The notes below the pieces were generated by a model. It saw only the letters and a list, made by a program, of their open reading frames with translations. It searched no databases and had not been told where the DNA came from. From assembly GCA_964504845.1 (NCBI GenBank), contig CAZDGR010000004.1:1-38194 (forward strand): 38,194 bases of DNA. The letters run 5' to 3'. This DNA is from an uncultured Rhizobium sp. (GTDB taxonomy: Bacteria; Pseudomonadota; Alphaproteobacteria; SHVZ01). Shown here in pieces: positions 566 through 37,036 of this stretch. Position 1 is the stretch's first letter. The number at the start of each line of letters is the position of its first letter. A program made the position numbers and the translations under genes.

Positions 566-2587
566 ATGGTCTTGTCCGCAGCGATGGCTCAATCCCTCAT
601 CATCGTCGATCCGGCCTCGCCGGTGCTCGCTCGCCGCTACGCCGCCAATCGCGCCATCCTTTCCGGAGTCGCCTCGAACGCTCTCGCCAGGATGGACCTT
701 GCGGAAGCGCCGCCGGGCACCCTGCTGGCCGATGCGGCCGAGCCCGATGTCGTGCTCAACGTCGCAACCAAGAACGTCGCCTTCTACACGGCGGACCCGA
801 GGATCCTCGCCACTCATGGAGTCGCCGCCTTCGTCGACGCGGATCAATGCTTCAAGCCGGGCGTTGCTGCCTATACGCCCGAGGACGAAGTGGCCTATGA
901 ACGCATCGTCGCGATAGACGCGGCATTCGGTGCCTCGCTCATGACGCAACCCAAACCCTATATCGTGCCGTCTCGCTACTCTCCTGTCCTGACCGTATTC
1001 GGGATCGGCCTCGGCTGGCACCTCGAGGCCTTGCTGGAACGATACGATGTCGAGCATCTCATCCTGTTCGAGGCCGACATCGAGGTGTTCCGCGCATCGC
1101 TCTACGCGATCGAGTGGCAGCCGATCGTGGAACGTTTCGCGACGAACGGACGAAGCCTGACCATCATCCTCGAAACCGACCCGCAGTCCGCGATCAACGG
1201 CCTGCTTGCTGCCCTGCAACGCCCGAACCCGGCGCTCATCGTCGGCAGCCGCTATTTCCGTCTCTATCAGTCTCCGCTCATGGATCTCGTTGCCGAGAAC
1301 ATCAGCCAGCGGCTGCCTCTGCTCGGCTACGGCTGGGGCTACTTCAAGGACGAACGACGTCAGATCCTGCAAACGGCGGAGAACGTCGGACGATCCCGGC
1401 GCTGGCTCCGTCGCAGGTGGCCGGCTCTCCTCAGCGCCGATGCGGTCATCGTCGGAGCCGGGCCGTCGTTGGAAAAGTCGCTACATGTCCTCAGGCGCAT
1501 TCGGGATCGTGTCGTCGTCTTTGCAGGCGGCTCCGCGATCCGTCCGTTGCTGCGTGCCGGTCTGGAGCCGGACTTCCATGTCGAGCTTGAGACGGCACCG
1601 TCGACCGCAGCGATACTCCTCGAGCTGGCGGACAAGTCCGTGTTTGACAGGGTCACGCTGCTTGCCTCCAACGGCATGATCCCACAGGCGCTGGAAGTCT
1701 TCCGCAATGCCCACCTGTTCGTTCGCGAGAACTCGGTGAGTTCCAGATTGCTCGGCGACACCGTCGAGGCCGTCCCTGGATGCTACCCTGTTGTGGGAAA
1801 TGCTGCGCTCGGCATCGCGACCACGCTCGGCTTCCGGCGGATCACGCTCTTCGGCGTCGACTTCGGCTACCGCGACCCCAAGCGCCATCACGCCTCCGGC
1901 ACCATCTACATGGACGACACCTCGCAGACGGCGCGCAAGGACCTTGCCGATCTCGGCCTGCCCGACGTCGCCTTGCTCGACTACACGGATACCCGCCACA
2001 CCTTGCCGTCGATCCTCGGCGACACGCTGCTCTCGGACGACACGTTTCATCTGAGCCATGTCGCGATGGAGATATTTCTTGCGCATGCACCGGACTTGAC
2101 CCTGATCCAGTGCGGCGAAGGGGCTCGTCTCGGCCGCGCCGTCAACCTCACTCCGGACCAGCTTGACCCGGAGATCTATGGCGGAGATCGGACTGCGACC
2201 TTGGAGGCGGTTCGGGAACGTTTCGAGTCACCGCCGATGGACAGTGCGGGTTACGGACGAAGAATGTCCCGCCTCGCCGCCGCCGTCGACGATGTCTTCT
2301 TTCAGCTCAGGCGGCTGTTCGCCCGGCCCGCCGAAGACACGGGCGAGTACGCGCACCTGGTCAGCGAGGCCCACGCCCTGCTTCAAAGCGCCGCCCGCGA
2401 TGTGCCCGCGGCCTTCGAGCTGCTCTACGGAATTTTCACCAGCTACTTCAAGGCGACGATCGAGCGGAGCTTCATGACGTCTTCCACCGAAGATCGTCAC
2501 CGATTCACTCGTGTCGCTCGCGAGCATTTCCTGCTTCTCCTCGACGACATCGCCGGGACGCTCGGGCCCCTGCGCGGCGCCCCGTAG
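566..2587 (+). CDS. maf: Maf family (DUF115 / MAF_flag10, MptE-like domain) flagellin glycosyltransferase
   Basis: Motifs VFGIGLGWHLE, LILFEAD, GWGYFKDE, VIVGAGPSL, GLEPDFHVELE, PVVGNAA, LFGVDFG and HHASGTIY are typical of Maf proteins. Start is more likely ATG 566 or 584 than the ORF-track TTG at 395, which overlaps the divergent gene. Confidence 0.85.
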   Translation: MVLSAAMAQSLIIVDPASPVLARRYAANRAILSGVASNALARMDLAEAPPGTLLADAAEPDVVLNVATKNVAFYTADPRILATHGVAAFVDADQCFKPGVAAYTPEDEVAYERIVAIDAAFGASLMTQPKPYIVPSRYSPVLTVFGIGLGWHLEALLERYDVEHLILFEADIEVFRASLYAIEWQPIVERFATNGRSLTIILETDPQSAINGLLAALQRPNPALIVGSRYFRLYQSPLMDLVAENISQRLPLLGYGWGYFKDERRQILQTAENVGRSRRWLRRRWPALLSADAVIVGAGPSLEKSLHVLRRIRDRVVVFAGGSAIRPLLRAGLEPDFHVELETAPSTAAILLELADKSVFDRVTLLASNGMIPQALEVFRNAHLFVRENSVSSRLLGDTVEAVPGCYPVVGNAALGIATTLGFRRITLFGVDFGYRDPKRHHASGTIYMDDTSQTARKDLADLGLPDVALLDYTDTRHTLPSILGDTLLSDDTFHLSHVAMEIFLAHAPDLTLIQCGEGARLGRAVNLTPDQLDPEIYGGDRTATLEAVRERFESPPMDSAGYGRRMSRLAAAVDDVFFQLRRLFARPAEDTGEYAHLVSEAHALLQSAARDVPAAFELLYGIFTSYFKATIERSFMTSSTEDRHRFTRVAREHFLLLLDDIAGTLGPLRGAP

Positions 2588-2593
2588 CGAGCC

Positions 2594-4579
2594 TTATGAC
2601 GTAGCTGCGGACCGGATCGCAAATCCCTCCGCCGGCAACCCGGCACGCGAGCGTCGCCTCATTTCGAGAGCTGCCTCTTCGATCGCTCGGGCAAGCCGAT
2701 TCATGTCGAAGAGAGGTCCGGCGGACCTTCGGATCCGCAGTCGTTCGCGAAGCGCAGCCAGAAGGTCGCGATCGCGCGCGAGCCCGATGAGAAGCTCGGC
2801 ATAAGTCGACGCGTCCGCTGCCACAAGATCCGCAAGGTCCAGATCGATAAGCATGCTGGCGCAGACCCGGCCGGCGAAATCCTTCCCGATCCACGTCGCC
2901 ATCGGACAGCCGATCGAAAGGGCGTCCGAGGCCGTGGTGTGTGCGTTGTAGGGCAAGGTATCGATTGCGAGATCGGCGACGGCGATCCGAGCCAGATGCT
3001 CTGCGTGCACCGCCGGAGGTGCGAAGATGACCCGCTCCGCGACGACGCCGGCCCGGACTGCCTCCTTCCGCAGGTTCGCTCTGGCGGCGGGTCCCGGATC
3101 AAGAAGCCATAGCACCGCGTCCGGTACTGAGCGCAGAACCTGCATCCACACGACGAAGCTGACAGTTTGAATCTTGTAGATCTGGTTGAAGCAGACCAGG
3201 ACCACCGCGTCTTGCGGCAAACCATGTCGTGCGCGGTCCGGCGCGGCAGCGGATGATGGCCCGGTGTCGTGCGGCCAGTAGCAGCCCGGAAGTCGCACCA
3301 ATGCTTCGCGATAGTCGCCCTCGCTTCCCGGCGGCGCGACGATCGAGTCCACCAGGGCATAGTCGTGATAGGCGGCACCGGTCACGCCCGGATAGCCGAA
3401 GTAATTGACCTGCGCAGGAGCAGGTCGTCGGGCGAGGATTCCGGGCCTTGCGCCATAGGTATGGCCGGAGAGGTCGATGAGTACATCTATGCGGTCGGCC
3501 GCGATGCGTGCCGCCGCGGCAGCGTCGTTCAGCGAGCCGAGGTCGACAACTTCCCCGAATACTTTCGCAAGTCGCGCGCGGACCTCGCTGCCATCATCGC
3601 CGGCCCAGCTGTATCCGTAGAGGTCAAGGTTTCCGCGGTTGTGGGCTTCGAGTAGCCCGATCATCTCATAGGCGACGGCGTGACGGCGAAAGTCGCCGCT
3701 GATATAGCCGAGGCGAAGACGCCCACTCTCCGCCGGCGCGTGCCGCGGGACGTGTCTCGCCGCATACTGGGTACTCCATCGTTCGGCGTTGGCGCGCTTG
3801 AGCCTCGCAGGGAGTTCGAGTGCCAGCAAGTGGAACGGCGGTGCTGCCCCGCCCCGCGCCAGCAAGGCGGCGAGATGGCCGGTTCGCCGCGACAGGTCGG
3901 ACCACTCAGCCACCTGCAGCCGCGCATGCAGGCCTTCGGAAAGAGCGATTGCGTTCGTCGGCTCCAGCGCCGCCGCCCGGTCGTAGGCGCGACACGCCGT
4001 CTCCCAATCCCTTGCCTCGCGCGAGCCGTGCCCTGCATTGACCCACGCGCGCACCGAGGTCGGCGCGGCTGCGATCGCACGACGGTGCCAGCGCCCGGCG
4101 GACCGCAGGCCGCGCGTCGCGAGCGCGCCGCCGAGATTCCCGAGCGCGATGCAATCGGTCGGATCGACGCTGACGGCACGACCGAAGTGGATAGCGGCGG
4201 CCTGGAAATCGCCCACATGCGCGAGCCCGTTGCCGAGTTCGATCCACGCGGTGGGCTCGCGCGGCTCGAGGGCCGCGGTCTGCCGGAACGCGATCGCGGC
4301 GCCTTCCGCCTGACCCGCCGCCAGTCGAGCGAGGCCGAGATTGACGGCGATCGGAGCCAATGGAGCGCGGCGCAGCAGCGTCGTCAGAAGGACCGCGGCC
4401 CGCTCCACGTCCCCGGCCTGAAGCTGGGCAACCGCAAGGAAGTGGCTCGCGTCGACGAGATCCGGGAGGAGAGCCAGTGCCCGCCGGTAGTCCGATGCGG
4501 CACCGACCAGATCGGCCGCCAGATGTATCTCGTGACCTCGATGAAGCAGCGCGAGGGCCTCGTCTCGCCTGGAGGTCAC
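2594..4579 (-). CDS. TPR-repeat GT41 glycosyltransferase (OGT/SEC-like)
   Basis: N-terminal TPRs, then GYISGDFRRHAV, DLSGHT, PAPAQVNYFGYPG, CFNQIYKI and DTLPYNAHTTASDAL. Confidence 0.9.
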   Translation of the reverse strand: MTSRRDEALALLHRGHEIHLAADLVGAASDYRRALALLPDLVDASHFLAVAQLQAGDVERAAVLLTTLLRRAPLAPIAVNLGLARLAAGQAEGAAIAFRQTAALEPREPTAWIELGNGLAHVGDFQAAAIHFGRAVSVDPTDCIALGNLGGALATRGLRSAGRWHRRAIAAAPTSVRAWVNAGHGSREARDWETACRAYDRAAALEPTNAIALSEGLHARLQVAEWSDLSRRTGHLAALLARGGAAPPFHLLALELPARLKRANAERWSTQYAARHVPRHAPAESGRLRLGYISGDFRRHAVAYEMIGLLEAHNRGNLDLYGYSWAGDDGSEVRARLAKVFGEVVDLGSLNDAAAAARIAADRIDVLIDLSGHTYGARPGILARRPAPAQVNYFGYPGVTGAAYHDYALVDSIVAPPGSEGDYREALVRLPGCYWPHDTGPSSAAAPDRARHGLPQDAVVLVCFNQIYKIQTVSFVVWMQVLRSVPDAVLWLLDPGPAARANLRKEAVRAGVVAERVIFAPPAVHAEHLARIAVADLAIDTLPYNAHTTASDALSIGCPMATWIGKDFAGRVCASMLIDLDLADLVAADASTYAELLIGLARDRDLLAALRERLRIRRSAGPLFDMNRLARAIEEAALEMRRRSRAGLPAEGFAIRSAATS

Positions 4580-4586
4580 CGCACGG

Positions 4587-5033
4587 TCAGCTCTTTGGCC
4601 CGATAACCGCGCTCCGCCAGTCGTCCTTCGGCGCGACGGCGCGGCTTCCGTCCTTCTTCACCAGCACGAGACCGCCATACTTCCAGACTCGTTCCAGACG
4701 CGACGGCTCTTCCATGATGTAGGCGACGATCTGCTTCGCCGCGCGGCGCTCGAGAACGGGCCGGAGCCCGATCCAATAGGCGAGCGTCACGACCGCGATT
4801 GTGCCCCAGATGATCTTCTGCTCGAAGCCAAAGGCCACCATCCCGCCTAAAATGACTGCGAAAAGCACAAGATAGCCGTAAGCGATCCGGCTCTTGAGGT
4901 GGTCGAAGGGCAATGGGCAATTGGGGTGGCAGAGCCGCTTCAGGTCGACCTCGAACGATAGGTCGGATGATGGAATCGCGGTTTCGAGAACGGCGAATGC
5001 CGCCTGCGTCCGATCCTGGGTTGCGTCGGCCAT
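4587..5033 (-). CDS. Small hypothetical membrane protein (two predicted TM helices)
   Basis: 148 aa with two hydrophobic stretches (IAYGYLVLFAVILGGMVAFG; IIWGTIAVVTLAYWIGL). Stop lies 7 nt before the GT41 start, so it is probably co-transcribed. Confidence 0.7.
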   Translation of the reverse strand: MADATQDRTQAAFAVLETAIPSSDLSFEVDLKRLCHPNCPLPFDHLKSRIAYGYLVLFAVILGGMVAFGFEQKIIWGTIAVVTLAYWIGLRPVLERRAAKQIVAYIMEEPSRLERVWKYGGLVLVKKDGSRAVAPKDDWRSAVIGPKS

Positions 5034-5099: not shown

Positions 5100-5516
5100 T
5101 TATCTCAGGCCTCGCGAAACCTCGGGCCAATGACGCTCCATGTACTGGTCGATGGCCTCGACCAGGAGCTCCTCCATGGTCGCGCCACGCGCCGCCGCGA
5201 CGATCTTGATGCGGCGGACGCGATCCTCGTCGACGCGAATGCCGAGCTTTCGCGTCCACGGCCGCCCGCCGAGCCAGGGCATATTGTCGGACGGTTTGCC
5301 GTCGGCGCGAGCCGGCAGTGGCTCGGGAGGTGCCGGGGTGGGTGCCGCGCTCGACTCGCGCGGAGCTGGAGTTGGCGCAGGAGCAGGAGCAGGCACGGCG
5401 ACCACAGGCTCGGACGGCGCGTCGAGCCGCGCATAGCTCGGCGCCTGGATCGGGGCCGCCTGCCCCGGACGACGGATGATCGAAGCATCCATTTGCGGGC
5501 GAGACTTCGGACTCAT
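5100..5516 (-). CDS. Ribbon-helix-helix centromere-binding protein (ParG-like)
   Basis: Pro/Ala-rich disordered N-terminus plus C-terminal RHH-like KLGIRVDEDRVRRIKIVAAARGATMEELLVEAIDQY. Start overlaps the parA stop (ATGA). Confidence 0.75.
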   Translation of the reverse strand: MSPKSRPQMDASIIRRPGQAAPIQAPSYARLDAPSEPVVAVPAPAPAPTPAPRESSAAPTPAPPEPLPARADGKPSDNMPWLGGRPWTRKLGIRVDEDRVRRIKIVAAARGATMEELLVEAIDQYMERHWPEVSRGLR

Positions 5517-6193
5517 ACGGGCTCTCCGGACCGGAGGTTGGTGGCCGGCGCGCCGCGAACGCGGCGAAGCTGACGGTCGATATAGTCGTAGAGCTGGCGA
5601 ATCTCTTTGCTTGCCGACCCGTCGGGATCGTATTCCAAAGCTGCGAGACCCTCGATCATCGCCTCCGAGTAGATGATGCGGTCGATCAGGTCGACCGGCG
5701 CGACCTTGCCGTGCTGGGCGAGGACCCGGGCGGCGTCCCCTTTGAGCCGGGTACGGGCCTTTGCGGCGTTGACCACGAGGACCAGCGGCCTTCCTGCCGC
5801 TTCAACGATGTCGATGGTGGGTCCCACGGCCTCCAGGTCGAGTGGCGAAGGACGTGCTGGCACCACGACCAGGTCGGCGGCCGTCACGCAGGCGCGCGTG
5901 ACATCCAGAAAGGCTGGCGGCGTGTCGATGACCACCAACCGGATGCCCGACCTCTCGGCCGCGGCGATAGCGCCGGCGAGGTCGCCATCGGCACAGGCCA
6001 GCATGACCGGCCCGCTCTCCGTCTTTCGGCGGTTGTAGAGGTGGCTGAGGCTGCCCTGGGGGTCCATGTCGATCATCGCGGCCGGCCCGTGGCCCGCCGC
6101 CTCGGCAGCTGCCGCCAGGTTGAGGGTCAAGGTGGTCTTGCCGACTCCCCCCTTGGTAGCGGCGACGGCGATGACGGGAATTCGATCGCTCAT
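5513..6193 (-). CDS. parA: ParA family partition ATPase (short, type Ib)
   Basis: Deviant Walker A KGGVGKTT, DMDPQGS and VIDTPP; 226 aa with no N-terminal HTH. Confidence 0.92.
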   Translation of the reverse strand: MSDRIPVIAVAATKGGVGKTTLTLNLAAAAEAAGHGPAAMIDMDPQGSLSHLYNRRKTESGPVMLACADGDLAGAIAAAERSGIRLVVIDTPPAFLDVTRACVTAADLVVVPARPSPLDLEAVGPTIDIVEAAGRPLVLVVNAAKARTRLKGDAARVLAQHGKVAPVDLIDRIIYSEAMIEGLAALEYDPDGSASKEIRQLYDYIDRQLRRVRGAPATNLRSGEPV

Positions 6194-7704: not shown

Positions 7705-7824
7705 GAATTGGTCTCCGACGCTCTCTCGCTCTACTCTGAGTTCGTGAGCACACCGGACAGGCCCGAAACGCCCTCTAGGAGCGTCGCGACGACCCCGACG
7801 ATCGCGCCGACGGCCGGAGCGGTC

Positions 7825-15024: not shown

Positions 15025-15028
15025 CGCG

Positions 15029-30068: not shown

Positions 30069-32735
30069 CTATGCCTTGGAGGAATGAGTCGCCACGTCCG
30101 CGGGAGCGGGAAATTTCAGTTCCGCGGGTGGAGCGATCCTTCCATGACATTCCTTGAACCGCTGACCCGATCCGCACGGGCACATCTGCAGGCGCTTGAC
30201 GCGGATGACCGGCTCCGGCGCGCGCGCTCCCGGATTTTCCGCCGGGGGTGTCCGATCGGGAACAAGCCTGGAAATCGACCGAGCGACGCTCTTGCTGATC
30301 TCGCCCAGCATCTCCTCGAAGAAGCTGTAGGCCTCCTTCTTGTATTCTTGCAGAGGCACCAGCATCGCGGCCCCCCGGAGCGCCACGCCGAAACGAAGGT
30401 GCTCGAGAGAGGCAAGCTGATGGCGCCAGCACTGGTCGAGGGCCGTCATCACGACATATCGAGTTACCCGAGGCCGCTCTTTCGGATCGAAGGCTTCAAG
30501 CCGCTGCCGCCAAAGGTCGGCGACGCACACTTCGAGCCGCTGCAGAATCTCCTCGTCCGCGATTCCTTCCTCGGCCGCCCATTCGTCCACGGGAACAATC
30601 AGGTTGAACAGGTCCAGCAGATCGGCCTTAAGGCCGGCCAGATCCCACTGCTCGGCATAGGCGGTCGGCGGTATCCGCGCGGCCACCATCTTGGCCATCA
30701 CCTCGGTCCGCATCGCGACCAGCCGATGATCGAGGTCCTCGTCTGCCAAAATCTCCCGGCGCAGGCCGTAGATGAGCTTTCGCTGCTCATTGGCCACGTC
30801 GTCGAAGTCGAGAAGGCGCATGCGGCTGTCGAGCATCATCTCCTCGACCGTGCCCTGGGCCTTTCGGATGGCGCGGGTCAGCCACGAATGGAACATCGCG
30901 GCCCCCTGGTCGAGACCAATCTTGTCCAGCCGGCGCCGAAGCCGATCGGCGCCGCCAAAGATGCGGATCAGCTCGTCGTCGAGGGAAAGCATGAAAACGG
31001 ACTCGCCGGGATCCCCCTGGCGGCCGGCGCGGCCGATCAGCTGATCGTCGATGCGGCGGCAATGAAAGCGCTCGGTGCCCATGATCAACAGGCCGCCGGC
31101 AGCGCGGGCGGCCTGACGCGCCTCGGTGACCTCGCGGGTAACAGTCTCGGTCACCCGCCGGATCTCCTCCGGATCGCTCAAGCCTGCCGTTGCCTGCGCT
31201 ATCCGGAAAGCGACGTTTCCTCCGAGCTGGATGTCGGTGCCACGGCCGGCCATGTTGGTTGCGACGGTCACTGCTCCCGGGCGGCCGGCTTCGGCAATGA
31301 TTTCAGCCTCGCGCTCGTGGTGTCGGGCGTTGAGCACCTCATGGACGATGCCATGCCGCGAGAGCTCGGCGGACAAGGTCTCCGACTGGCCGACCGACGT
31401 GGTCCCGATCAGGATCGGCTGCCCCCGCGCGTGCCGCTCTTTCGTGCGCACGACAATTGCTGCGATCTTCTCCACCGCCGTCCGATAGACCTCGTCCTCG
31501 CTGTCGATGCGGATCATCGGCTGGTTGGTGGGGATCTCGACGACCGAGAGCCCATAGATCCGCCGATACTCCTCGGCGTCCATGGAAGCGGTGCCGGTCA
31601 TGCCGGCGATCCGCCGATAAAGACGGAAATAGTTCTGATAGGTCGTCTGGGCGACCGTGTTTCCCTGGTTGCGGAGCGGTAGCCCTTCCTTGGCCTCAAG
31701 TGCTTCGTGCAGACCGTCACCCAGGCGCCGGCCTGAGAGCATGCGGCCCCGCAATTCGTCGACGATCACAACGTCGCCGTCCTTGACGATATAGTCCTTG
31801 TCGCGCCGATAGATATTACGGGCATGCAACGCCTGACTCACGACCTGCACAAGCCAGAGGTTCTCGTGGTCGTAGAGGTGCCCTTGCTTGATGAGACCGG
31901 CCGTTTGCAATAGCTGTTCGATCTGGTCTATGCCGTCTTCGGTCAGCTGGACCTTGCGCTGCTTCTCGTCGATGTCGAGGTTATCGGGGTCAAGCCGCTG
32001 GACCAATCGGTCGACTTCATAACAGGCATTGGAGGTCTCCTGAGACGGCGTCATGATCTCGATCGGCATTCGAGCTTCATCGATCAGAACGGAGTCGACT
32101 TCGTCGATGATGGCATAGTCGAGACCCCGCTGGGTCATCTCCTCCAGGGAGTTCTTGAGGTTGTCCCGCAGGTAGTCGAAGGCGAACTCGGTGTGAACGC
32201 CGTAGATGATGTCGGCCTGATAGGCTCGCTTGCGGGCTTCCATCTCCATCCCGCTGGTAAGGCTGGCGACCTCGAGCCCGAGAAAACGATAAACCGCGCC
32301 CATCCACTCCGCGTCGCGCTTGGCGAGGTAGTCGTTCACGGTGACGACATGAACGCCCTTGCCGGCCAGCGTGTTGAGGAAGGCCGGCATGGTCGCCGCC
32401 AGCGTCTTGCCTTCGCCGGTCCTCATCTCGGCGACATGACCTTGGTGAAGCGCGATGCCGCCCATGACCTGGACGTCGAACGGACGCTGACCAAGAACGC
32501 GCTTCGCGGTCTCGCGCACGACAGCGAAGGCGTCGACCAGCAGATCGTCCAGAGGCGCGCCGTCTGCCGCACGCTGCTTCAGGGACAGTCCTGTTGCGCG
32601 CAGTTCGTCGTCTGACATCGCCGAGAGCGCCGGCTCCCTCGCCGCGACCTCACGGCAAAGCCGAGCGATCTCGCGGCGCGAGGTGGCAGTTGAGAGGCGG
32701 CGAATTCCGTCGCCGATGACTTTGAGAGCTTTCAT
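30069..32735 (-). CDS. secA: Preprotein translocase ATPase SecA, divergent accessory paralog (SecA2-like)
   Basis: MRTGEGKT, VVTVNDYLAKRD, FDYLRDN, DEVDSVLIDEAR, GMTGTA, ATNMAGRGTDI, GRQGDPG, IRA1 region and C-terminal SEC-C CPCGSGQRFKECHG. ATG 32735 is the likely start. Confidence 0.95.
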   Translation of the reverse strand: MKALKVIGDGIRRLSTATSRREIARLCREVAAREPALSAMSDDELRATGLSLKQRAADGAPLDDLLVDAFAVVRETAKRVLGQRPFDVQVMGGIALHQGHVAEMRTGEGKTLAATMPAFLNTLAGKGVHVVTVNDYLAKRDAEWMGAVYRFLGLEVASLTSGMEMEARKRAYQADIIYGVHTEFAFDYLRDNLKNSLEEMTQRGLDYAIIDEVDSVLIDEARMPIEIMTPSQETSNACYEVDRLVQRLDPDNLDIDEKQRKVQLTEDGIDQIEQLLQTAGLIKQGHLYDHENLWLVQVVSQALHARNIYRRDKDYIVKDGDVVIVDELRGRMLSGRRLGDGLHEALEAKEGLPLRNQGNTVAQTTYQNYFRLYRRIAGMTGTASMDAEEYRRIYGLSVVEIPTNQPMIRIDSEDEVYRTAVEKIAAIVVRTKERHARGQPILIGTTSVGQSETLSAELSRHGIVHEVLNARHHEREAEIIAEAGRPGAVTVATNMAGRGTDIQLGGNVAFRIAQATAGLSDPEEIRRVTETVTREVTEARQAARAAGGLLIMGTERFHCRRIDDQLIGRAGRQGDPGESVFMLSLDDELIRIFGGADRLRRRLDKIGLDQGAAMFHSWLTRAIRKAQGTVEEMMLDSRMRLLDFDDVANEQRKLIYGLRREILADEDLDHRLVAMRTEVMAKMVAARIPPTAYAEQWDLAGLKADLLDLFNLIVPVDEWAAEEGIADEEILQRLEVCVADLWRQRLEAFDPKERPRVTRYVVMTALDQCWRHQLASLEHLRFGVALRGAAMLVPLQEYKKEAYSFFEEMLGEISKSVARSISRLVPDRTPPAENPGARAPEPVIRVKRLQMCPCGSGQRFKECHGRIAPPAELKFPAPADVATHSSKA

Positions 32736-32828: not shown

Positions 32829-33224
32829 TCAGGCATTCACGATATCGCCGTAGTTCTTTTCTTCGAGGATGCTTGAACCGAGGCGGTCGTCGATGCGCCG
32901 CTTGATCTGCGCACGCTCGCGGTTGAGGTCGAACGCCCGCAGGCACAGTTCCGCTAGGCGGCCGTCGACGGGCCCGTGCCTGCGGCTTTCATAGACCCTG
33001 TCAGTCAGTATCCAGATCTCGTCATTGATCTGCTCGAGTTCAATACACAAGCGACGGAGATCATCATCCAGGCTCAGAGCCCGGTTCTGCACTTGCTTCA
33101 GACGATCCAGTTCGGAAGTAACATTGGCCCGTTTCGACGCTTCGACCAGTCGTCTTTGCTTTATTTCGAGTATTGTAATGCGGTCTAGGAGCTCTCCCGG
33201 GGAGATCTCGATTTGAACTAGCAT
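32829..33224 (-). CDS. DUF6165-like small helical protein
   Basis: IEISPGELLDRITILEIK...INDEIWILTD...NRERAQIKRRID...SSILEEKNY matches the DUF6165 pattern as I recall it. This family is often found beside TPR-glycosyltransferases. Confidence 0.78.
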   Translation of the reverse strand: MLVQIEISPGELLDRITILEIKQRRLVEASKRANVTSELDRLKQVQNRALSLDDDLRRLCIELEQINDEIWILTDRVYESRRHGPVDGRLAELCLRAFDLNRERAQIKRRIDDRLGSSILEEKNYGDIVNA

Positions 33225-33323
33225 TCGCGGCCCTCTGAGTGTCAATCTGCTGGTACCATCCCCCCAGAGGTGCGTTCAAGAGAGCGTTCGTCGCTTCCGG
33301 CGCGCAGGAACGGGTAGTATTTT

Positions 33324-34406
33324 ATGTCGTCTGCTTCACGCTCTCCGCGACCGCTTCGCGTCGCGGTGGCCGGCCTCGGTTTCGGTTACGCTGTACATCT
33401 TCCGAGTTGGCTTGGCCAGACGGGGATCGAAGTCGTCGGGATCGCCTCGAGACGTCGTGACAAGGCCACCGAGCTAGCTAGCCGACACGGGATCTCCGTG
33501 GCAACGGATGACATCACCGAGCTTCTGTCACTCGAACCCGACATCTTCTCGCTCGCCCTTCCGCCCGACGTCGCCGCGGCCGCCGCCCGTCAGGCTCTGG
33601 AACGCGGAGTTGCCATCATCAGCGAGAAGCCAATTGCCGGCACATTCAACGAAGCGGCGGCGCTGGCCGCCCTCGCAGGCAACCGGACCACGGCAGTCAA
33701 TTTCAGCTTTTCCGAACTCGACACGTTCCAGACGCTCCGACGGCATCTTGCCTCGAACGAATTCGGGGCGCCAATCAGCGCGGACCTGACGTGGCGGACC
33801 GAGTCCTATGCCCACAAGCATCGGATCTGGAGTTGGAAGACGGACCTCCAGCGCTTTGGCGGCGTAATCACCAGCTTCGCCAGTCACGTGACCCACCTGG
33901 TCGAGTGGCTCCTAGGGCCGGTACGCATGCTCGAGGCGTCCCTCGATGACCGACGTACCCGCGCCTTCGCACCGCCCGGTACAAAGCCCGCCTGGGATCA
34001 AGCGGAGATCCTGCTGCATCACCACAACAATGCCGTCTTCCGGGCGGTACTCGACAACGCAGCCCCCGGCGAGGACGTCCACGAGTGGAACATCCGCTGC
34101 GCGGCAGGGAGCTACCGCCTCGTCAAGCATGGGCCGGGTATCATGACCGGGCTGGTGCTCTACCGCATAGGACCAGACGGCACTGAGGAAGTCGTCACCC
34201 AAGACCGCCATCAGGACAGCGCCGGGGGCCGTGTCCTGCCGTTCCGGCGGCTGCTCGATCGTTTCGTCGGCGCCGTTCGAGCCGAGGGCACGTGCGAACC
34301 TAGCTTTGCACATGGCTGCCGCGTCCAGTATCTGATGGCAAAGATCGAAGCCTCCGCCTCTGCTACTTCCGCCCTAGCGTGCGATGACGTCGTTCTCAGC
34401 GCCTGA
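33324..34406 (+). CDS. Gfo/Idh/MocA family NAD(P)-dependent oxidoreductase
   Basis: Rossmann VAVAGLGFG, EKP motif and GGVITSFASH. Confidence 0.88.
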   Translation: MSSASRSPRPLRVAVAGLGFGYAVHLPSWLGQTGIEVVGIASRRRDKATELASRHGISVATDDITELLSLEPDIFSLALPPDVAAAAARQALERGVAIISEKPIAGTFNEAAALAALAGNRTTAVNFSFSELDTFQTLRRHLASNEFGAPISADLTWRTESYAHKHRIWSWKTDLQRFGGVITSFASHVTHLVEWLLGPVRMLEASLDDRRTRAFAPPGTKPAWDQAEILLHHHNNAVFRAVLDNAAPGEDVHEWNIRCAAGSYRLVKHGPGIMTGLVLYRIGPDGTEEVVTQDRHQDSAGGRVLPFRRLLDRFVGAVRAEGTCEPSFAHGCRVQYLMAKIEASASATSALACDDVVLSA

Positions 34407-35019
34407 TCAGAACTATTTCCTCGCGCTCGCCGACTATTCGCGCGACTTCACCGCGCGTCTCGGCCTCGACAGCGAAGCTCAGCCCCTGGATCAGCTGCTG
34501 GGCGAGTTGAAGCCGCGCCTCGAGGGAATGCGCGACGCCGAGACCGCGATTATCGGTTCAATCCCTCAAACGATGGCTCGCCGTTCGCGCGACGACGCGC
34601 GGGCGATCGGACTCAATACAGTGAGCTTGCTTGCCGACAGGCTTACGATCCTTATCGTCAAGGAGTGGAACCTGCGCGAGCGCGGCGCCAATCCGGCCGG
34701 CGCCGATGTCCTGGCCCAGTCCGAGATTCCGGAGATCTGCCGAGCCCTTTCCCAGGTGGAGCCGGACCAAGCCCTCTATATCGGCAAGCTTTCCAAAATC
34801 CGTGCCGGCGCCATGGCGGCAACCTGGGCCGAGGCCTATTACGGGCTCCTGACCGCAAACCTTCTGCTCTGGGAAGCCCAGGAGATCCTCTACCGGCGCG
34901 ACATCCTGGAACTGCCGGCCGACGAGGTCCGCTCCTACATCCGCTGGTTCTCGCTCGGCAACATGTTGCGGAACGAGTACATGGCGCTCTGCGAGCAGCT
35001 GTTCTGGCACCGATCCTAA
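34384..35019 (+). CDS. Hypothetical helical protein with DUF6165/DUF4254-like motifs
   Basis: TVSLLADRLTILIVKEW...ANLLLWEAQE...NMLRNEYM. Overlaps the oxidoreductase stop region and ends just before the GT41 gene. Confidence 0.65.
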   Translation: MTSFSAPDQNYFLALADYSRDFTARLGLDSEAQPLDQLLGELKPRLEGMRDAETAIIGSIPQTMARRSRDDARAIGLNTVSLLADRLTILIVKEWNLRERGANPAGADVLAQSEIPEICRALSQVEPDQALYIGKLSKIRAGAMAATWAEAYYGLLTANLLLWEAQEILYRRDILELPADEVRSYIRWFSLGNMLRNEYMALCEQLFWHRS

Positions 35020-35032
35020 GGATGCCGAAGTC

Positions 35033-37036
35033 GTGAGCGTGACCAGGCCGGGCTTCGAGGCGGATGAGGAAAGATCGGAGTCCCTTCTCCGCCAGGCCGT
35101 CGGTGCCGGCATGGCGGGTGATCACGCGCGTGCCTCGCGCCTGATCACCGCCTCCCTCGCACTGGTACCCGACCGCGGCGAGCTCTGGGCCAACTTGGCG
35201 ATCGCCGCGCGATCCGTCGGAGAAGCCGCCCGGCCAGAAGTCTGCGCCCGCCGCGCGCTGACGCTTCGTGCCGATCGTCATGAGATCTGGGCGCTGCTGG
35301 CCGACATCCTTACACCGTCGAATCCCGAAGGAGCGCGCAAGGCCTGCCGAACCGTCCTTGCACTCGAACCGCTTCATGCAACGACATGGACCAATCTGGC
35401 ACTGCTCTTACGCCAGCAGTCCCACCGGAGCGGGACTCTCGCCTACAGCCGTCGCGCGATCACCATCGACACAGCGAGTGTCGAGAACTGGAACAATTTC
35501 GGTCTCGCGCTAACCGATCTCGGCAGGCTGGGCGAGGCTAGAGCAGCCTTCGAGGTCGGCATCTCAATCGACGGCCGCCTTGCCTCGCCACACGCGAACC
35601 TGGCCAACATCCTGGTCAACAGCGCCCATGTCGAGGAGGGATTGGCTAGCTATCGTCGGGCGATCGCACTTGATCCGCACCACGCGGAAGGTCTCAACGG
35701 CCTTGCCGGCGGGCTCAAGGATCAGAGCCTGACCGAGCTCGCGACCATGATCGCGCGCTCGGCGATGGCCTGTGATCCCGTCAGCATTGCCGCGGCCAAG
35801 ACCTACCTGGCGTGTCTGCTTCATCTGCCTGGCCTCTCGCCGGCTCGCCTGTATGACGAGCACCGGCGCGTCGTGGGCAGCTTCGAGACGGAAATCCAGC
35901 CGCTGCCCGCGAGCCCTAACACCCGTGATAAGACGCGCCGTCTGGTCGTCGGCTATGTCTCGTCCGATCTGCGTGGCCACCCTGTCGCTCGATATCTGAA
36001 GGCGGCTTTCGAGTATCGGAATACCGAGCGGATTCGCGTGATCGTCTACTCCGACGTGCGGGCCGAGGATGCGGAAACGGCATGGTATCGTTCGAGGACC
36101 GATCTCTGGCGTGACGTGCAGGGCCTTCGTGACGACGCGGTGGGCAAGCTCGTACGCGCTGACGGCGTCGATATCTTGGTCGTCCCTGCCGCTCACTTTG
36201 ACGACAACCGTCTTCTGCTCGCGGCCCATGGCGCGGCCCCTATCCAGATCTCCGCCTTCGCAGGAACTACGACGGGAGTCTTGCGCTCCACCCACTGGCT
36301 TACCGACGCTGTGCTTCATCCCGACGGAATTGCCGAGCGCTTCACCGAAACGCTGCAGCGGCTGCCGGTTCTTCATTTCTTTCGGCCGCCGGCCGGGGAT
36401 CCACCGATCGTGGAGCCACCGATGAGAACCAAAGGGTTTGTGACCTTCGGCTGTTTCGTCAGTCCGGCCCGTATCAATCCCACCGTGATCCGTTCATGGT
36501 CGCGCATCCTGGCGCGGCTGCCGACGGCGAAGCTGGTGCTCAAGAACCGGACCGCTTACCGCAACAGAGAGATCCAGTCCCGCTATCGCCGGCTGTTCGA
36601 ATCCGCCGGCGGCGACTTCGATCGCGTACAGCTGATGACGTCGGACGACAGCCGCTACGATCACCAGAAACGCTACAACGACATCGACATCGTCCTGGAT
36701 ACCTTTCCCTTCACCGGTGCCTCGGCGAGTTTCGATGCGTTGTGGATGGGCGTGCCGGTCATCACACTATCCGGGTGGGGCTTCGTGCAGCGGATGACGG
36801 AATCCCTTCACGTGCCGCTGGGACTCGAGGAGCTGGTGGCGGGGACCACGGACGAGTACGAGGAACTAGCCGTATCCCTCGCGCATGATCCGGTCCGATT
36901 GCTCGCGCTCAGGCAAGATCTCCGTCAGCGAATTGCAGGATCCATCCTGTGCGACGGCCCGGCCTACGCGCGGTCTCTCGAGGCGGCCTATCGTGCTATA
37001 TGGGAGCGGTGGTGCGAGGCGGCGCCGATCTGCTAG
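35033..37036 (+). CDS. TPR-repeat GT41 glycosyltransferase (SPINDLY-like)
   Basis: TPRs, GYVSSDLRGHPVA, FGCFVSPARI and DTFPFTGASASFDALWMGVP. Confidence 0.9.
   Translation: MSVTRPGFEADEERSESLLRQAVGAGMAGDHARASRLITASLALVPDRGELWANLAIAARSVGEAARPEVCARRALTLRADRHEIWALLADILTPSNPEGARKACRTVLALEPLHATTWTNLALLLRQQSHRSGTLAYSRRAITIDTASVENWNNFGLALTDLGRLGEARAAFEVGISIDGRLASPHANLANILVNSAHVEEGLASYRRAIALDPHHAEGLNGLAGGLKDQSLTELATMIARSAMACDPVSIAAAKTYLACLLHLPGLSPARLYDEHRRVVGSFETEIQPLPASPNTRDKTRRLVVGYVSSDLRGHPVARYLKAAFEYRNTERIRVIVYSDVRAEDAETAWYRSRTDLWRDVQGLRDDAVGKLVRADGVDILVVPAAHFDDNRLLLAAHGAAPIQISAFAGTTTGVLRSTHWLTDAVLHPDGIAERFTETLQRLPVLHFFRPPAGDPPIVEPPMRTKGFVTFGCFVSPARINPTVIRSWSRILARLPTAKLVLKNRTAYRNREIQSRYRRLFESAGGDFDRVQLMTSDDSRYDHQKRYNDIDIVLDTFPFTGASASFDALWMGVPVITLSGWGFVQRMTESLHVPLGLEELVAGTTDEYEELAVSLAHDPVRLLALRQDLRQRIAGSILCDGPAYARSLEAAYRAIWERWCEAAPIC

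What the first reader, a model, noticed from the sequence alone, without database searches (positions are those of the whole stretch)
566..37036. Plasmid-borne protein-glycosylation island with its own SecA: candidate Gram-negative accessory glycoprotein export system
Seen: about 14 glycosyltransferase-like genes (6 TPR-GT41, 3 TPR-GT9-like including one pseudogene, 3 GT4-like, 1-2 Maf), sugar-tailoring enzymes, a Sel1 protein and a second SecA, interleaved with rep/par/resolvase genes. No Wzx/Wzy, Wzm/Wzt or priming glycosyltransferase is present. Known: GT41 (OGT, SPINDLY, HMW1C), Maf and TPR + GT-B FlmG all glycosylate proteins, and in streptococci and staphylococci SecA2 loci with dedicated glycosyltransferases export heavily glycosylated serine-rich proteins. 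Inference: this is an analogous mobile module in an alphaproteobacterium that glycosylates proteins in the cytoplasm and exports them through a specialised SecA. I do not recognise it as a described system.
Basis: partly seen in the sequence, partly recalled or inferred. Interest (0 to 1): 0.9.

Follow-up and report, generated by a model that had tools for sequence, protein, structure and literature searches.

The report
Plasmid glycosylation island with second SecA
This stretch is a third of a roughly 110-kb plasmid in a freshwater alphaproteobacterium that carries dozens of protein-type sugar transferases together with extra copies of the export proteins SecA and SecB, its own secretion machine and a likely surface-layer protein, so it may be the first accessory Sec export route seen in a double-membraned bacterium.

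Summary
The window is a whole MAG contig. It holds 6 TPR-GT41 genes, one complete Maf plus the start of a second, 3 TPR-GT9-like genes (one frameshifted) and 3 GT4-like genes (only one above Pfam cut-offs). It also holds a WbuX/HisH/HisF/GNAT/GFO sugar-tailoring set, a Sel1 protein, ParA, a tyrosine recombinase, RepA and a complete SecA.

This SecA is a true paralogue. It is 49-52% identical to housekeeping SecA and passes the canonical SecA models, but fails all four Gram-positive SecA2 models. It belongs to a rare clade of 9 clusters on a long stem branch.

The island is syntenic in two sister species. It is one third of a plasmid of about 110 kb that also encodes a SecB paralogue, the MAG's only detected T2SS, a nonulosonic-acid pathway, about 30 soluble glycosyltransferases and a secreted all-beta Slr4-like protein. 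No polysaccharide export machinery was found.

- GT41 genes are expanded genus-wide and sit among chromosomal flagellin genes, so flagellin may be the glycosylation target.
- Related plasmids lack SecA2.
- The gene context of the more distant SecA2 relatives could not be retrieved.

My best reading is that SecA2 and SecB2 feed the plasmid's Slr4-like cargo to its T2SS, possibly after glycosylation.

The parts
3..419 (-). N-terminal part of a second Maf gene; its 3' part runs off the contig.
   Evidence: tblastn gives 66.7% identity to G002 Maf2 residues 1-135. No Pfam hit on this fragment alone.
395..2587 (+). Maf-type glycosyltransferase (Maf1); a likely start is near 566.
   Evidence: PF20157 at 121.7 bits and PF01973 at 108.5 bits. 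71% identical to the G002 orthologue.
2594..4579 (-). TPR-GT41 glycosyltransferase a.
   Evidence: PF13844 at 260.6 bits plus TPR repeats.
4587..5033 (-). Conserved 148-aa protein of unknown function.
   Evidence: No Pfam or NCBIfam family. 82-83% identical in G001 and G002.
5513..6193 (-). ParA-type partition ATPase.
   Evidence: AAA_31, CbiA and MipZ hits. dN/dS 0.097.
6452..7567 (-). HTH_13 / RHE_PE00001-like plasmid protein, possibly a partition or replication partner.
   Evidence: PF11972 at 23.4 bits (below the 26.1 cut-off). NF040876 at 53 bits (below cut-off).
7684..8766 (+). Tyrosine recombinase.
   Evidence: PF00589 at 61.3 bits and PF02899 at 26.1 bits.
8895..10097 (+). GT4 glycosyltransferase.
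   Evidence: PF20706 at 36.1 bits and PF00534 at 35.7 bits.
9914..12322 (+). TPR-GT41 glycosyltransferase b.
   Evidence: PF13844 at 145.2 bits.
12276..13628 (+). WbuX-type N-acetyl sugar amidotransferase.
   Evidence: TIGR03573 at 333 bits, cut-off 203.
13589..14254 (+). HisH-like glutamine amidotransferase.
   Evidence: PF00117 at 64.4 bits.
14242..15024 (+). HisF-like cyclase subunit.
   Evidence: PF00977 at 155.4 bits.
15017..15568 (+). GNAT acetyltransferase.
   Evidence: PF13302 at 83.5 bits. A weak PseH-like hit at 29 bits is below the cut-off.
15565..17454 (-). TPR plus GT4-like protein.
   Evidence: Glyco_trans_1_4 at 24.2 bits, below the cut-off of 27. 65% identical to the G002 orthologue, dN/dS 0.18.
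17461..18882 (-). GT4-like protein (weak match).
   Evidence: Glyco_trans_1_4 at 18.9 bits, below the cut-off. 71-79% identical orthologues.
18729..20849 (-). TPR-GT9-like glycosyltransferase.
   Evidence: TPR repeats plus PF01075 at 22.9 bits, cut-off 22.
20707..21420 (-). Sel1-repeat protein with a signal peptide.
   Evidence: PF08238 at 84.8 bits. N-terminal hydrophobic segment.
21465..23486 (-). TPR-GT41 glycosyltransferase c.
   Evidence: PF13844 at 121.6 bits.
23303..25444 (+). TPR-GT41 glycosyltransferase d.
   Evidence: PF13844 at 128.8 bits.
25384..27210 (-). TPR-GT41 glycosyltransferase e.
   Evidence: PF13844 at 120.5 bits.
27096..28453 (-). Frameshifted TPR-GT9-like gene, either a pseudogene or an assembly error.
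   Evidence: The G002 514-aa orthologue aligns in frame -1 (28453-27815) and in frame -3 (27992-27096).
28446..30008 (-). TPR-GT9-like paralogue, immediately downstream of secA2.
   Evidence: TPR only in Pfam. 75% identical to the G002 orthologue, and the orthologue is 35% identical to the product of 18729-20849.
30069..32735 (-). SecA2, a full-length accessory SecA paralogue.
   Evidence: All SecA Pfam domains are present. It passes NF009538 and TIGR00963 and fails four SecA2 models. It forms a monophyletic clade with a 1.45 stem branch. dN/dS 0.117.
32829..33245 (-). DUF6165 protein, directly upstream of secA2 on the same strand.
   Evidence: PF19662 at 33.1 bits, cut-off 27. The adjacency is kept in G002.
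33324..34406 (+). GFO/IDH/MocA sugar oxidoreductase.
   Evidence: PF01408 at 61.8 bits and PF22725 at 48.1 bits.
34384..35019 (+). Conserved 211-aa protein of unknown function.
   Evidence: No family found. 73-77% identical orthologues.
35033..37036 (+). TPR-GT41 glycosyltransferase f.
   Evidence: PF13844 at 98.9 bits.
37041..38192 (-). RepA plasmid replication initiator; the likely start is near 38018-38048.
   Evidence: PF04796 at 115.2 bits. 96% identical in G001 and G002. The nearest plasmid RepA proteins are 42-47% identical, from Roseomonas, Azospirillum and Tistrella.

Best explanation
The window is about one third of a roughly 110-kb RepA/ParA plasmid with no conjugation genes seen. 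The plasmid is conserved in three species of one uncultured freshwater alphaproteobacterial genus. It combines two things.

(a) A cytoplasmic protein-glycosylation arsenal: about 30 soluble, mostly TPR-fused glycosyltransferases of protein-targeting families (GT41/FlmG-like, GT9-like, GT4-like, GT61), two Maf genes, and a nonulosonic-acid and acetamidino-sugar pathway.

(b) A self-contained export line: SecB2, SecA2 (with DUF6165), a complete T2SS, and a secreted all-beta Slr4-like surface protein with a Sec signal peptide.

Most likely mechanism (all steps inferred):
1. SecB2 keeps the abundant plasmid-encoded pre-protein unfolded and hands it to the intact zinc-finger tail of SecA2.
2. SecA2 drives it through the housekeeping SecYEG channel. 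No SecY2 is present.
3. The plasmid T2SS then puts it on the cell surface, as proposed for Slr4 and reported for Aeromonas S-layers.

This parallels the SecA2-dependent S-layer export of C. difficile and B. anthracis.

Some of the TPR-GTs may glycosylate this cargo before export, with HMW1C/HMW1 and Aah/AIDA-I as recalled precedents. I put that step at about 0.3. Others, above all the Mafs and FlmG-like GT41s, probably glycosylate flagellins.
For: SecA2 is a real, functional paralogue:
- All SecA domains and motifs are intact.
- It scores 1019 bits on the canonical SecA model.
- It is only 49-52% identical to every housekeeping SecA found: 41 genomes, and 301 genomes where none exceeds 52%.
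- The clade is monophyletic with a stem of 1.45 substitutions per site (39 rows).
- dN/dS is 0.117.
- G000 also holds a SecA1 fragment that is 87-92% identical to the genus SecA1, and G002 holds both copies.

Gene order DUF6165-secA2-TPRGT9-TPRGT9(psi)-GT41 is co-directional with gaps of 94 bp or less. It is syntenic in G001 and G002.

The same replicon carries:
- SecB2, PF02556 at 89-98 bits, 32% identical to SecB1.
- GspD, E, F, G and a weak GspK. This is the only GspD/E/F set found in G000.
- A 458-aa secreted protein.

Evidence on the 458-aa protein:
- 2 of 32 family members weakly hit Pfam Slr4.
- 23 of its 30 nearest ESM-Atlas hits are clusters in which 10-20% of members carry Slr4, score 0.97.
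- The AlphaFold2 model is all-beta, pLDDT 86, with Ig-like adhesin folds as nearest matches.
- In G004 it lies beside gspE-F-G-...-D, as Slr4 does in the passages I read of PMC7821379.
- RNA-library contigs of 3 of 4 runs, from 3 studies, cover this ORF.

No polytopic membrane protein other than GspF lies on the 110-kb sister contig.
Against: - No experiment and no direct computational link ties SecA2 to any cargo.
- Related GT-rich plasmids in G004 (88% complete) and G009 (95% complete) have no SecA2. G004 has the Slr4-like gene, the T2SS and SecB-like genes, and G009 has a SecB-like gene. SecA2 is therefore dispensable for this kind of plasmid.
- PF13844 gives 31-51 matches even in the genomes with none of this plasmid's markers (G008, G003, G011). 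Chromosomal GT41 genes lie between flagellin genes in G008 C9, G002 C89 and G000 C234. Maf and FlmG are flagellin enzymes (passages of PMC7591256). The glycosylation arsenal may therefore have nothing to do with Sec cargo.
- High Ser/Thr content (17-34%) is a trait of the whole Slr4-like family, not a mark of glycosylation.
- The query itself has no Slr4 Pfam hit.
- The gene context of the more distant SecA2-clade members (60-78% identical) could not be retrieved.
- All genomes are MAGs.
Confidence: 0.45

Rival explanations
1. This is a flagellin-glycosylation plasmid. The TPR-GT41 (FlmG-like), Maf and nonulosonic-acid genes decorate chromosomally encoded flagellins, which leave through the flagellar export apparatus. 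SecA2, SecB2, the T2SS and the Slr4-like gene form a separate surface-protein module that merely shares the replicon, and its cargo is not glycosylated in the cytoplasm.
For: - Flagellin genes were found in 5 of 5 genomes searched.
- GT41 genes lie between flagellin genes on chromosomal contigs of G008, G002 and G000.
- Maf matches were found in 2 of 5 genomes and only on plasmid contigs.
- FlmG (TPR plus GT-B) and Maf are the known cytoplasmic flagellin O-glycosyltransferases (passages of PMC7591256).
- NeuB, two CMP-sugar cytidylyltransferase-family (CTP_transf_3) genes and a PseB-like gene are on the plasmid.
Against: - About 30 glycosyltransferases is far more than the flagellin islands I know of (recalled).
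- No flagellar gene lies on the 110-kb contig.
- secA2 is embedded co-directionally among TPR-GT genes, not placed with the T2SS or the Slr4-like gene.
- GT9-like, GT61 and GT4 types are not known flagellin enzymes (recalled).
Confidence: 0.3
2. SecA2 and SecB2 are general-purpose extra copies. They raise Sec capacity or buffer the burden of the plasmid's secreted and T2SS proteins, without a dedicated cargo or any link to glycosylation.
For: - SecA2 keeps every canonical domain and the SecB-binding zinc finger, and still passes the housekeeping SecA models.
- Related plasmids manage without it.
- 26 of 1631 genomes carry more than one solitary SecB (passage of PMC4257090).
Against: - The long stem branch (1.45) followed by purifying selection, together with 19 clade-fixed substitutions at sites invariant in the 9 SecA1 sequences aligned with them, points to a changed function rather than simple extra dosage.
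- A second full-length SecA was seen in only 1 of 300 other alphaproteobacterial genomes sampled.
Confidence: 0.15
3. The glycosyltransferases build a polysaccharide (O-antigen, capsule or EPS) rather than glycoproteins.
For: GT4- and GT9-like folds, WbuX/HisH/HisF, NeuB, a pyruvyl transferase and a carbamoyltransferase also occur in polysaccharide loci.
Against: - No Wzx, Wzy, ABC permease, WaaL or priming transferase was found. GspF is the only polytopic membrane protein on the 110-kb contig, and the window has none.
- Most of the GTs carry TPR arrays and are GT41-type.
Confidence: 0.05
4. This is a binning artefact: the plasmid contigs belong to another organism, so the 'second SecA' is not a paralogue within one cell.
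For: G000 is a MAG of 561 contigs with 4.3% estimated contamination.
Against: - The replicon is binned in three independent MAGs of the same genus, and related RepA plasmids occur in two more.
- The GC content is similar: 65.8% for the contig against 67.6% for the genome.
- The same GT41 family is expanded on the chromosomal contigs.
- SecA2 is 52% or less identical to any housekeeping SecA found, so it is not another organism's SecA1.
Confidence: 0.03

Closest known systems
SecA2-only accessory export of S-layer proteins in Clostridioides difficile and Bacillus anthracis (as summarised in a passage of PMC7821379).
   Same: A second SecA ATPase exists beside an essential SecA1. No SecY2 is seen here, which matches C. 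difficile as that passage describes it. A very abundant surface-layer-type protein is the candidate cargo.
   Different: - The host is a diderm alphaproteobacterium.
- SecA2 here is full length, with HWD, C-terminal linker and zinc finger.
- It scores below the cut-offs of TIGR04397, TIGR03714, TIGR04221 and NF012136.
- It arose separately, from within or near alphaproteobacterial SecA.
- It comes with a SecB paralogue and a T2SS, and it is plasmid-borne.
   Same: An accessory SecA is clustered with cytoplasmic glycosyltransferases, and a Ser/Thr-rich secreted surface protein sits on the same replicon.
   Different: There is no SecY2, no Asp proteins and no serine-rich repeat protein. The GT families differ, the SecA2 is not homologous at family level, and the cargo link is not shown.
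Slr4 S-layer protein with adjacent dedicated T2SS operon in marine Gammaproteobacteria (PMC7821379, passages read).
   Same: A secreted protein of about 450-570 aa with a Sec signal peptide lies beside gspE, F, G, K and D in G004. Pfam Slr4 hits are weak in 2 of 32 relatives, and ESM features are Slr4-like.
   Different: - The query itself has no Slr4 Pfam hit.
- The host is an alphaproteobacterium and the gene is on a plasmid.
- It is accompanied by SecA2, SecB2 and about 30 GTs.
- In G000-G002 the gene is 17-26 kb from the T2SS.
FlmG (TPR plus GT-B) and Maf cytoplasmic flagellin O-glycosylation with pseudaminic or legionaminic acid (PMC7591256, passages read).
   Same: TPR-fused soluble GT-B enzymes, Maf genes, NeuB and CMP-sugar cytidylyltransferase-family genes are present. 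Chromosomal GT41 paralogues lie among flagellin genes.
   Different: There are tens of paralogues instead of one. They are on a plasmid without flagellar genes, mixed with Sec and T2SS export genes. Orthology to FlmG was not tested.
Secondary SecA_DEAD-domain proteins linked to T1SS-like genes in PVC bacteria and some Proteobacteria (PMC4452313, passages read).
   Same: A second SecA_DEAD-containing protein occurs in Gram-negative lineages, with a conserved neighbourhood.
   Different: Those proteins lack all or most of SecA_SW and sit beside T1SS-related genes. This one has every SecA domain and sits among GTs. The supplementary tables that list the proteobacterial cases could not be read.

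Membership tests
Canonical SecA (NF009538 / TIGR00963) | Score above the curated equivalog cut-offs, with DEAD, PPXD, NBD2, wing/scaffold and SEC-C domains. | tested here: met
   NF009538 at 1019.5 bits (cut-off 814) and TIGR00963 at 911.6 bits (cut-off 800). Five SecA Pfam domains are present. Motifs GEGKT, DEVD, TNMAGRGTDI and CPCGSG are present (the motif strings were chosen from recall and from the printed sequence).
Gram-positive SecA2 families (TIGR04397, TIGR03714, TIGR04221, NF012136) | Score above each model's curated cut-off. | tested here: not met
   768.5 against 1085, 676 against 930, 551.1 against 725, and 550.1 against 1100.
aSec (SecA2/SecY2) glycoprotein export system | A SecY2 channel paralogue beside secA2. 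| tested here: not met
   No polytopic membrane protein in the window. Only GspF is polytopic on the 110-kb G002 contig.
aSec (SecA2/SecY2) glycoprotein export system | Asp1-3 accessory proteins and a serine-rich repeat adhesin. | tested here: not met
   No such Pfam family appeared among the ORFs scanned. The Ser/Thr-rich protein folds as three beta domains, not as a repeat tract.
GT41 (PF13844) | Pfam gathering score for the GT41 catalytic region, with N-terminal TPRs. | tested here: met
   6 of 6 candidate genes score 98.9-260.6 bits against a cut-off of 25, all with TPR hits.
Maf flagellin glycosyltransferase | Maf_flag10_N plus MptE-like domains. | tested here: met
   121.7 and 108.5 bits. 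The target protein was not testable.
FlmG-class flagellin O-glycosyltransferase | Orthology to FlmG and action on flagellin. | not tested
   The TPR plus GT-B architecture is shared, and chromosomal paralogues flank flagellin genes. No FlmG sequence was compared.
Slr4 S-layer protein (PF19526) | Pfam match. | tested here: inconclusive
   The query has 0 families. 2 of 32 relatives hit, best E-value 3.8e-4. 23 of the 30 nearest ESM hits are clusters in which 10-20% of members carry Slr4.
Slr4 S-layer protein (PF19526) | Adjacent dedicated T2SS operon and a Sec signal peptide. | tested here: met
   Adjacent in G004 C88, and on the same replicon in G000-G002. Hydrophobic, Sec-signal-like N-termini are visible in the 32 aligned members; I read these by eye and ran no signal-peptide predictor.
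Type II secretion system | GspD secretin, GspE ATPase, GspF platform and GspG pseudopilin. | tested here: met
   Secretin 149 bits, T2SSE 450.6 bits, T2SSF 160.9 bits, T2SSG 108.6 bits, and T2SSK 23 bits (below cut-off). These lie outside the window, on G002 C175 and on G000 C177 and C58.
RepA_C plasmid | RepA_C initiator plus a partition ATPase, and a circular replicon. | tested here: met
   RepA_C at 115.2 bits and ParA. G000 C177 joins the genes at both ends of G002 C175. The circle is inferred and was not closed by reads.
Bacterial autotransporter heptosyltransferases (Aah/TibC), as a model for the TPR-GT9-like genes | GT9 fold acting on a protein. | not tested
   There is only a marginal PF01075 hit at 22.9 bits against a cut-off of 22 in one gene. 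The resemblance to Aah/TibC is recalled.

The most novel reading that the evidence does not exclude
This would be the first accessory Sec pathway of a diderm bacterium. A plasmid-borne SecA2/SecB2 pair, with DUF6165 as a possible accessory factor, would be specialised to export a cytoplasmically O-glycosylated Slr4-like S-layer protein through SecYEG and on to a dedicated T2SS. The system would have evolved independently of the Gram-positive SecA2 systems and converged on the same solution for S-layer or glycoprotein export.
Probability: 0.25. Interest if true: 0.9.

Novelty: new variant of a known kind. Interest (0 to 1): 0.7.

Why it matters
Accessory SecA2 systems are treated as a feature of Gram-positive bacteria. 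The review passage I read places SecA, SecE, SecY and SecG paralogues in Actinobacteria and Firmicutes (PMC4257090).

This finding is a distinct proteobacterial SecA2 clade under purifying selection. It travels with a SecB paralogue, a T2SS, an S-layer-like cargo and a very large set of protein-type glycosyltransferases on one plasmid. That gives a compact natural test bed for three questions:
- Why do cells evolve a second SecA?
- Can glycosylated pre-proteins pass SecYEG in diderm bacteria?
- How do TPR-fused glycosyltransferases choose their protein targets?

The plasmid sequence is held by DNA runs from 8 studies of freshwater, river, aquatic, subsurface and wastewater samples. It may therefore shape the cell surface of a common environmental lineage.

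Tried and rejected
1. Context of distant SecA2 relatives.
- The genome-contig scan with SecA2 was swamped by housekeeping SecA. 593 relatives were found, 80 kept, all 51% or less identical.
- The metagenome-contig scan with P0007 did not return its own contig. 174 relatives were found, 80 kept, all 48% or less.
- As a result, the gene context of SecA2-clade members P0004-P0009 is unknown.

2. PLSDB plasmids. 147 records match SecA2, the 40 listed are all 47.6% or less identical and none of the 147 reaches 60%. No close plasmid-borne relative was found.

3. I tried using 'longest_contig' values as a fingerprint to co-locate SecB2 with SecA2. The values did not match even for G002, so I dropped the idea.

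4. First impression from 5 genomes that SecB2 occurs only where SecA2 does. This was rejected after one search showed second SecB genes in G004, G006, G009 and G010, which lack SecA2.

5. Ser/Thr richness as evidence of glycosylation. Rejected, because the whole family has 17-34% Ser+Thr.

6. A less hydrophobic signal peptide in the SecA2-linked members (1.68 against about 2.0-2.3). A few unlinked members are equally low, so this is not used.

7. Profile search of the Slr4-like alignment against PDB sequences gave 0 hits. Foldseek gave only generic Ig-like adhesins with TM-scores of 0.15-0.26.

8. The promoter and terminator scan of 25000-33600 found no more sites than shuffled sequence. It gives no operon evidence either way.

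9. Rfam gave no hits on the window or on L024.

10. RNA runs.
- Five RNA runs and one probably-DNA run hold 5-8% of the words of the secA2 stretch.
- In one search, run X15 laid nothing. Most of L024 outside 8845-10139, 2428-2848 and 16054-16341 had no cover or only very short pieces. This proves nothing, because these are contigs.

11. Tools not used or not available.
- Complex prediction was not used, because a SecA-tail/SecB pair would pass by likeness to solved structures.
The supplementary tables of PMC4452313, which list proteobacterial secondary SecA_DEAD proteins, may bear on the novelty claim.

12. Literature searches for a described Gram-negative SecA2 or glycosylation export system and for DUF6165 (0 papers) found none. 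Only the listings, plus the passages cited, were read.

Full report
WHAT THE WINDOW IS

The 38,194-bp window is the whole of contig C4 of a MAG (G000). The MAG has 561 contigs, 4.48 Mb, 90.85% completeness and 4.3% contamination. The contig GC is 65.8% against 67.6% for the genome.

Because of the high GC content I chose coding frames by GC3 pattern. I then scanned the chosen ORFs against Pfam and NCBIfam.

CHECK OF THE OBSERVATION

Glycosyltransferases:
- Six TPR-GT41 genes match PF13844 at 98.9-260.6 bits (cut-off 25).
- One complete Maf is present (PF20157 at 121.7 bits, PF01973 at 108.5 bits).
- The N-terminal 135 residues of a second Maf lie at the left contig end.
- There are three TPR-GT9-like genes. 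One has a marginal PF01075 hit (22.9 bits, cut-off 22). One shows only TPR in Pfam but is a 35-36% paralogue of the first. One is split between two reading frames at about 27.8-28.0 kb.
- There are three GT4-like genes. Only 8895-10097 passes Pfam cut-offs; the other two score 24.2 and 18.9 bits against a cut-off of 27.

Sugar tailoring and other genes:
- WbuX amidotransferase (TIGR03573, 333 bits), HisH-like, HisF-like, a GNAT and a GFO/IDH/MocA oxidoreductase.
- A Sel1 protein with a signal peptide, and DUF6165.
- ParA, an HTH_13 / RHE_PE00001-like gene, a tyrosine recombinase (not a resolvase) and RepA_C.
- A SecA with all five SecA Pfam domains.

A hydropathy scan shows no polytopic membrane protein in the window.

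THE SECA IS A GENUINE, SPECIALISED PARALOGUE

Presence of both copies:
- G000 has a second SecA fragment at the end of contig C170. It is 87-92% identical to the housekeeping SecA of sister species.
- G002 has both full-length genes.

Sequence features of the window copy:
- It keeps the Walker A and B motifs, the NBD2 motif and the C-terminal zinc finger.
- It passes the canonical SecA equivalog models (1019.5 bits against 814; 911.6 against 800).
- It fails all four Gram-positive SecA2 models.

Distance from housekeeping SecA:
- It is 49-52% identical to the genus SecA1 and at most 52% to any housekeeping SecA found in 41 relatives and in a spread of 301 alphaproteobacterial genomes. In that spread no other genome has a match above 52%. 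Only 1 of the 300 others, G078 (5% contamination), has two matches at E <= 1e-180. Two of the 300 genomes, G221 and G048, are flagged unpublished.

Size of the clade:
- Of the 8000 best word-sharing candidates scored from the 5.8-billion-protein collection, the 120 best were listed. Nine clusters are 60-96% identical, and identity then drops sharply to 51% or less.

Phylogeny:
- I built a tree of 39 rows. Nine rows were dropped because their longest ORF was not SecA: L009, L014, L047, L055, L088, L036, L035, L102 and L085.
- The tree makes the SecA2 clade monophyletic (SH-aLRT 100) on a stem of 1.45 substitutions per site.
- The clade attaches in the unresolved base of alphaproteobacterial SecA1. 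It is not sister to the genus's own SecA1.

Selection:
- dN/dS between G000 and G002 is 0.117.
- Nineteen sites are fixed differently in six aligned SecA2-clade sequences and nine aligned SecA1 sequences.

CONSERVATION OF THE LINKAGE

- The whole window is syntenic, gene for gene, in G001 (contig C2) and G002 (contig C175). Amino-acid identity is 56-96% and dS is about 0.5-1.5.
- DUF6165, secA2, two TPR-GT9-like genes and a GT41 gene lie on one strand with gaps of 94 bp or less.
- The GTDB order holds only 12 species genomes. SecA2 is found in 3 of the 12.

THE REST OF THE REPLICON

- G002 C175 is 109,866 bp long.
- G000 contigs C177, C58, C189, C4, C196 and C5 tile it.
- C177 joins the genes at its two ends. 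The replicon is therefore most likely a circle of about 110 kb, with a small unassembled gap in G002.
- Apart from RepA, ParA and the recombinase, I saw no conjugation genes.

Besides the window genes, the replicon carries:
- GspD, GspE, GspF, GspG and a weak GspK. This is the only GspD/E/F set detected in G000.
- A SecB paralogue (PF02556, 89-98 bits), 32% identical to the chromosomal SecB.
- Sugar-pathway genes: NeuB, a PseB-like dehydratase, two cytidylyltransferases, an aminotransferase, a carbamoyltransferase, an RmlD-like reductase, a pyruvyl transferase, an SDR, a second GFO-type oxidoreductase and an aldo-keto reductase.
- A TPR-GT61 and a Glyco_trans_1_2 protein.
- Many more TPR-GT41 and TPR-GT9 paralogues. 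The total is about 30 glycosyltransferase genes.
- GspF is the only polytopic membrane protein on the contig. There is therefore no Wzx, Wzy, ABC permease, ligase or priming transferase.

THE CANDIDATE CARGO

- A 458-aa protein is encoded at G000 C5:8873-10249. It has a Sec-type signal peptide and 32% Ser+Thr.
- It is 87-88% identical in G001 and G002 and 49% identical in G004.
- It has no Pfam or NCBIfam family.
- It belongs to a small family. 45 representatives score E <= 1e-3 among 1.84 billion, and most are 440-470 aa.
- 2 of 32 aligned members weakly hit Pfam Slr4.
- 23 of the 30 nearest ESM-Atlas hits are clusters in which 10-20% of members carry Slr4, at a score of 0.97.
- The AlphaFold2 model is confident (pLDDT 86, pTM 0.76) and all-beta.
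- Its nearest PDB folds are multi-Ig-like adhesins and pilins, with low TM-scores.
- In G004 the gene lies directly beside gspE-F-G-...-D. This matches the arrangement described for Slr4 in P. tunicata in the passages I read of PMC7821379. The same passage recalls that C. difficile and B. anthracis export their S-layer proteins through SecA2, and that Aeromonas uses a dedicated T2SS.
- RNA-library contigs of 3 of 4 runs, from 3 studies, cover this ORF between 8845 and 10139. These are contigs, so they show presence in RNA libraries, not expression level.

WHAT WEAKENS THE GLYCOPROTEIN-EXPORT READING

(i) PF13844 matches are abundant genus-wide: 72 in G000, 74 in G002, 51 in G008, 42 in G003 and 31 in G011. 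Matches are not copy numbers, and a gene usually gives two.

Chromosomal GT41 genes lie between flagellin genes:
- In G008 C9, flagellin genes sit at 226.5-228.0 kb and 237.4-239.8 kb, with GT41 genes at 229.4-235.9 kb.
- In G002 C89, flagellin genes sit at 35-39 kb and 49-50 kb, with GT41 genes at 41-47.5 kb.
- G000 C234 shows the same arrangement.

FlmG (TPR plus GT-B) and Maf are the known cytoplasmic flagellin O-glycosyltransferases (passages of PMC7591256). Maf matches occur only on the plasmid contigs, in 2 of 5 genomes. A large part of the GT arsenal may therefore serve flagellin, which does not use Sec.

(ii) Related RepA plasmids (74-78% identical RepA) are also GT-rich. They occur in G004, with the Slr4-like gene, the T2SS and SecB-like genes, and in G009, with a SecB-like gene. 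Neither has SecA2. Second SecB genes also occur in G006 and G010.

(iii) Ser/Thr richness and signal peptides are family-wide traits.

(iv) The gene context of the more distant SecA2 relatives could not be obtained.

MECHANISM I THINK MOST LIKELY

What is shown:
- The gene content, synteny, paralogy and purifying selection.
- The lack of membrane polysaccharide machinery.
- The signal peptide on the Slr4-like protein.
- The T2SS adjacency in G004.
- Cover of the Slr4-like ORF by RNA-library contigs.

What is inferred:
- SecB2 holds the abundant Slr4-like pre-protein unfolded and docks on the zinc-finger tail of SecA2.
- SecA2 drives it through the housekeeping SecYEG channel.
- The plasmid T2SS places it on the surface.
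- A subset of the TPR-GTs may glycosylate it in the cytoplasm beforehand. The precedents of HMW1C/HMW1 and Aah/AIDA-I are recalled, not checked here.
- The Mafs and FlmG-like enzymes probably act on flagellins.
- DUF6165 could be an accessory factor. This is pure speculation from its adjacency to secA2.

COMPARISON WITH KNOWN SYSTEMS

- The system works like the SecA2-only S-layer export systems of Firmicutes and like Slr4 or Aeromonas T2SS-dependent S-layers. It is a member of none of the SecA2 families.
- It is not an aSec SecA2/SecY2 system: it has no SecY2, no Asp proteins and no serine-rich repeat protein.
- It differs from the secondary SecA_DEAD proteins of PVC bacteria and some Proteobacteria, which lack SecA_SW and sit beside T1SS-like genes (PMC4452313, passages).
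- My literature searches found no described Gram-negative SecA2 or glycosylation export system and no paper on DUF6165. The supplementary tables of PMC4452313 could not be read.

VERDICT

This is a new variant of accessory Sec systems in a diderm bacterium, on a remarkable glycosyltransferase-laden plasmid. The link between SecA2 and glycoproteins remains unproven, and flagellin glycosylation is a strong partial rival.

DNA runs from 8 studies of freshwater, river, aquatic, subsurface and wastewater samples hold 43-84% of the sampled words of the secA2 stretch. The best holder may be the source sample of the window.

Noticed in passing
G000 C5 (L024):2600-2872(-); G002 C175:100841-101116(+): A 91-aa ORF with no Pfam or Rfam family is 100% identical at protein level between G000 and G002, while neighbouring genes are about 65-70% identical. 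It is 97% identical in G004 and 84% in G009. RNA-library contigs of run X16 cover 2428-2848.
   Followed up: partly
G008 C9:226-240 kb; G002 C89:35-50 kb; G000 C234:388-6173: GT41 (TPR-GT) genes are massively expanded in this genus and family, with 31-74 PF13844 matches per genome. They are interleaved with multiple short flagellin genes on chromosomal contigs.
   Followed up: partly
G002 C175:82904-83761(+); G000 C5:23397-24212(-): A second secreted protein of 285 aa has a signal peptide, 23% Ser+Thr and an internal duplication. It has no Pfam family and has a 43% paralogue on G000 C32.
   Followed up: no
window 27096-28453(-): A TPR-GT9-like gene is split between two reading frames, whereas its G002 orthologue is intact (514 aa). 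A better-conserved copy (66% identical) lies on G000 C227.
   Followed up: partly
G002 C175:13904-15781(-); G009 C8:29323-30948(-): A 625-aa protein with a C-terminal HTH_3 domain is conserved on the related plasmids (55% identical in G009, 87% in G000). It may be a plasmid-specific regulator.
   Followed up: no
PLSDB records NZ_CP072868.1 (Rhizobium sp. NLR16a, 489 kb), NZ_CP042265.1 (Qingshengfaniella, 517 kb) and NZ_LR134420.1 (Legionella adelaidensis, 189 kb): Other records filed as plasmids carry an annotated secA that is 45-47% identical to SecA2. I did not check whether these are chromids, mislabelled chromosomes or true second copies.
   Followed up: no
G078 C119:97247-99808 and C53:2491-4989: This is the only other genome of the 300 sampled alphaproteobacteria with two full-length SecA matches, both 49-50% identical to SecA2. 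Its contamination is 5%, so this may be a mixed bin.
   Followed up: no
G000 C58 (L027):3064-3662(-): Two small ORFs of 85 and 105 aa lie just upstream of secB2 on the same strand. The 105-aa ORF covers the place that is 75% identical to a 91-aa ORF in the same position in G002. The G002 ORF has no Pfam family.
   Followed up: no
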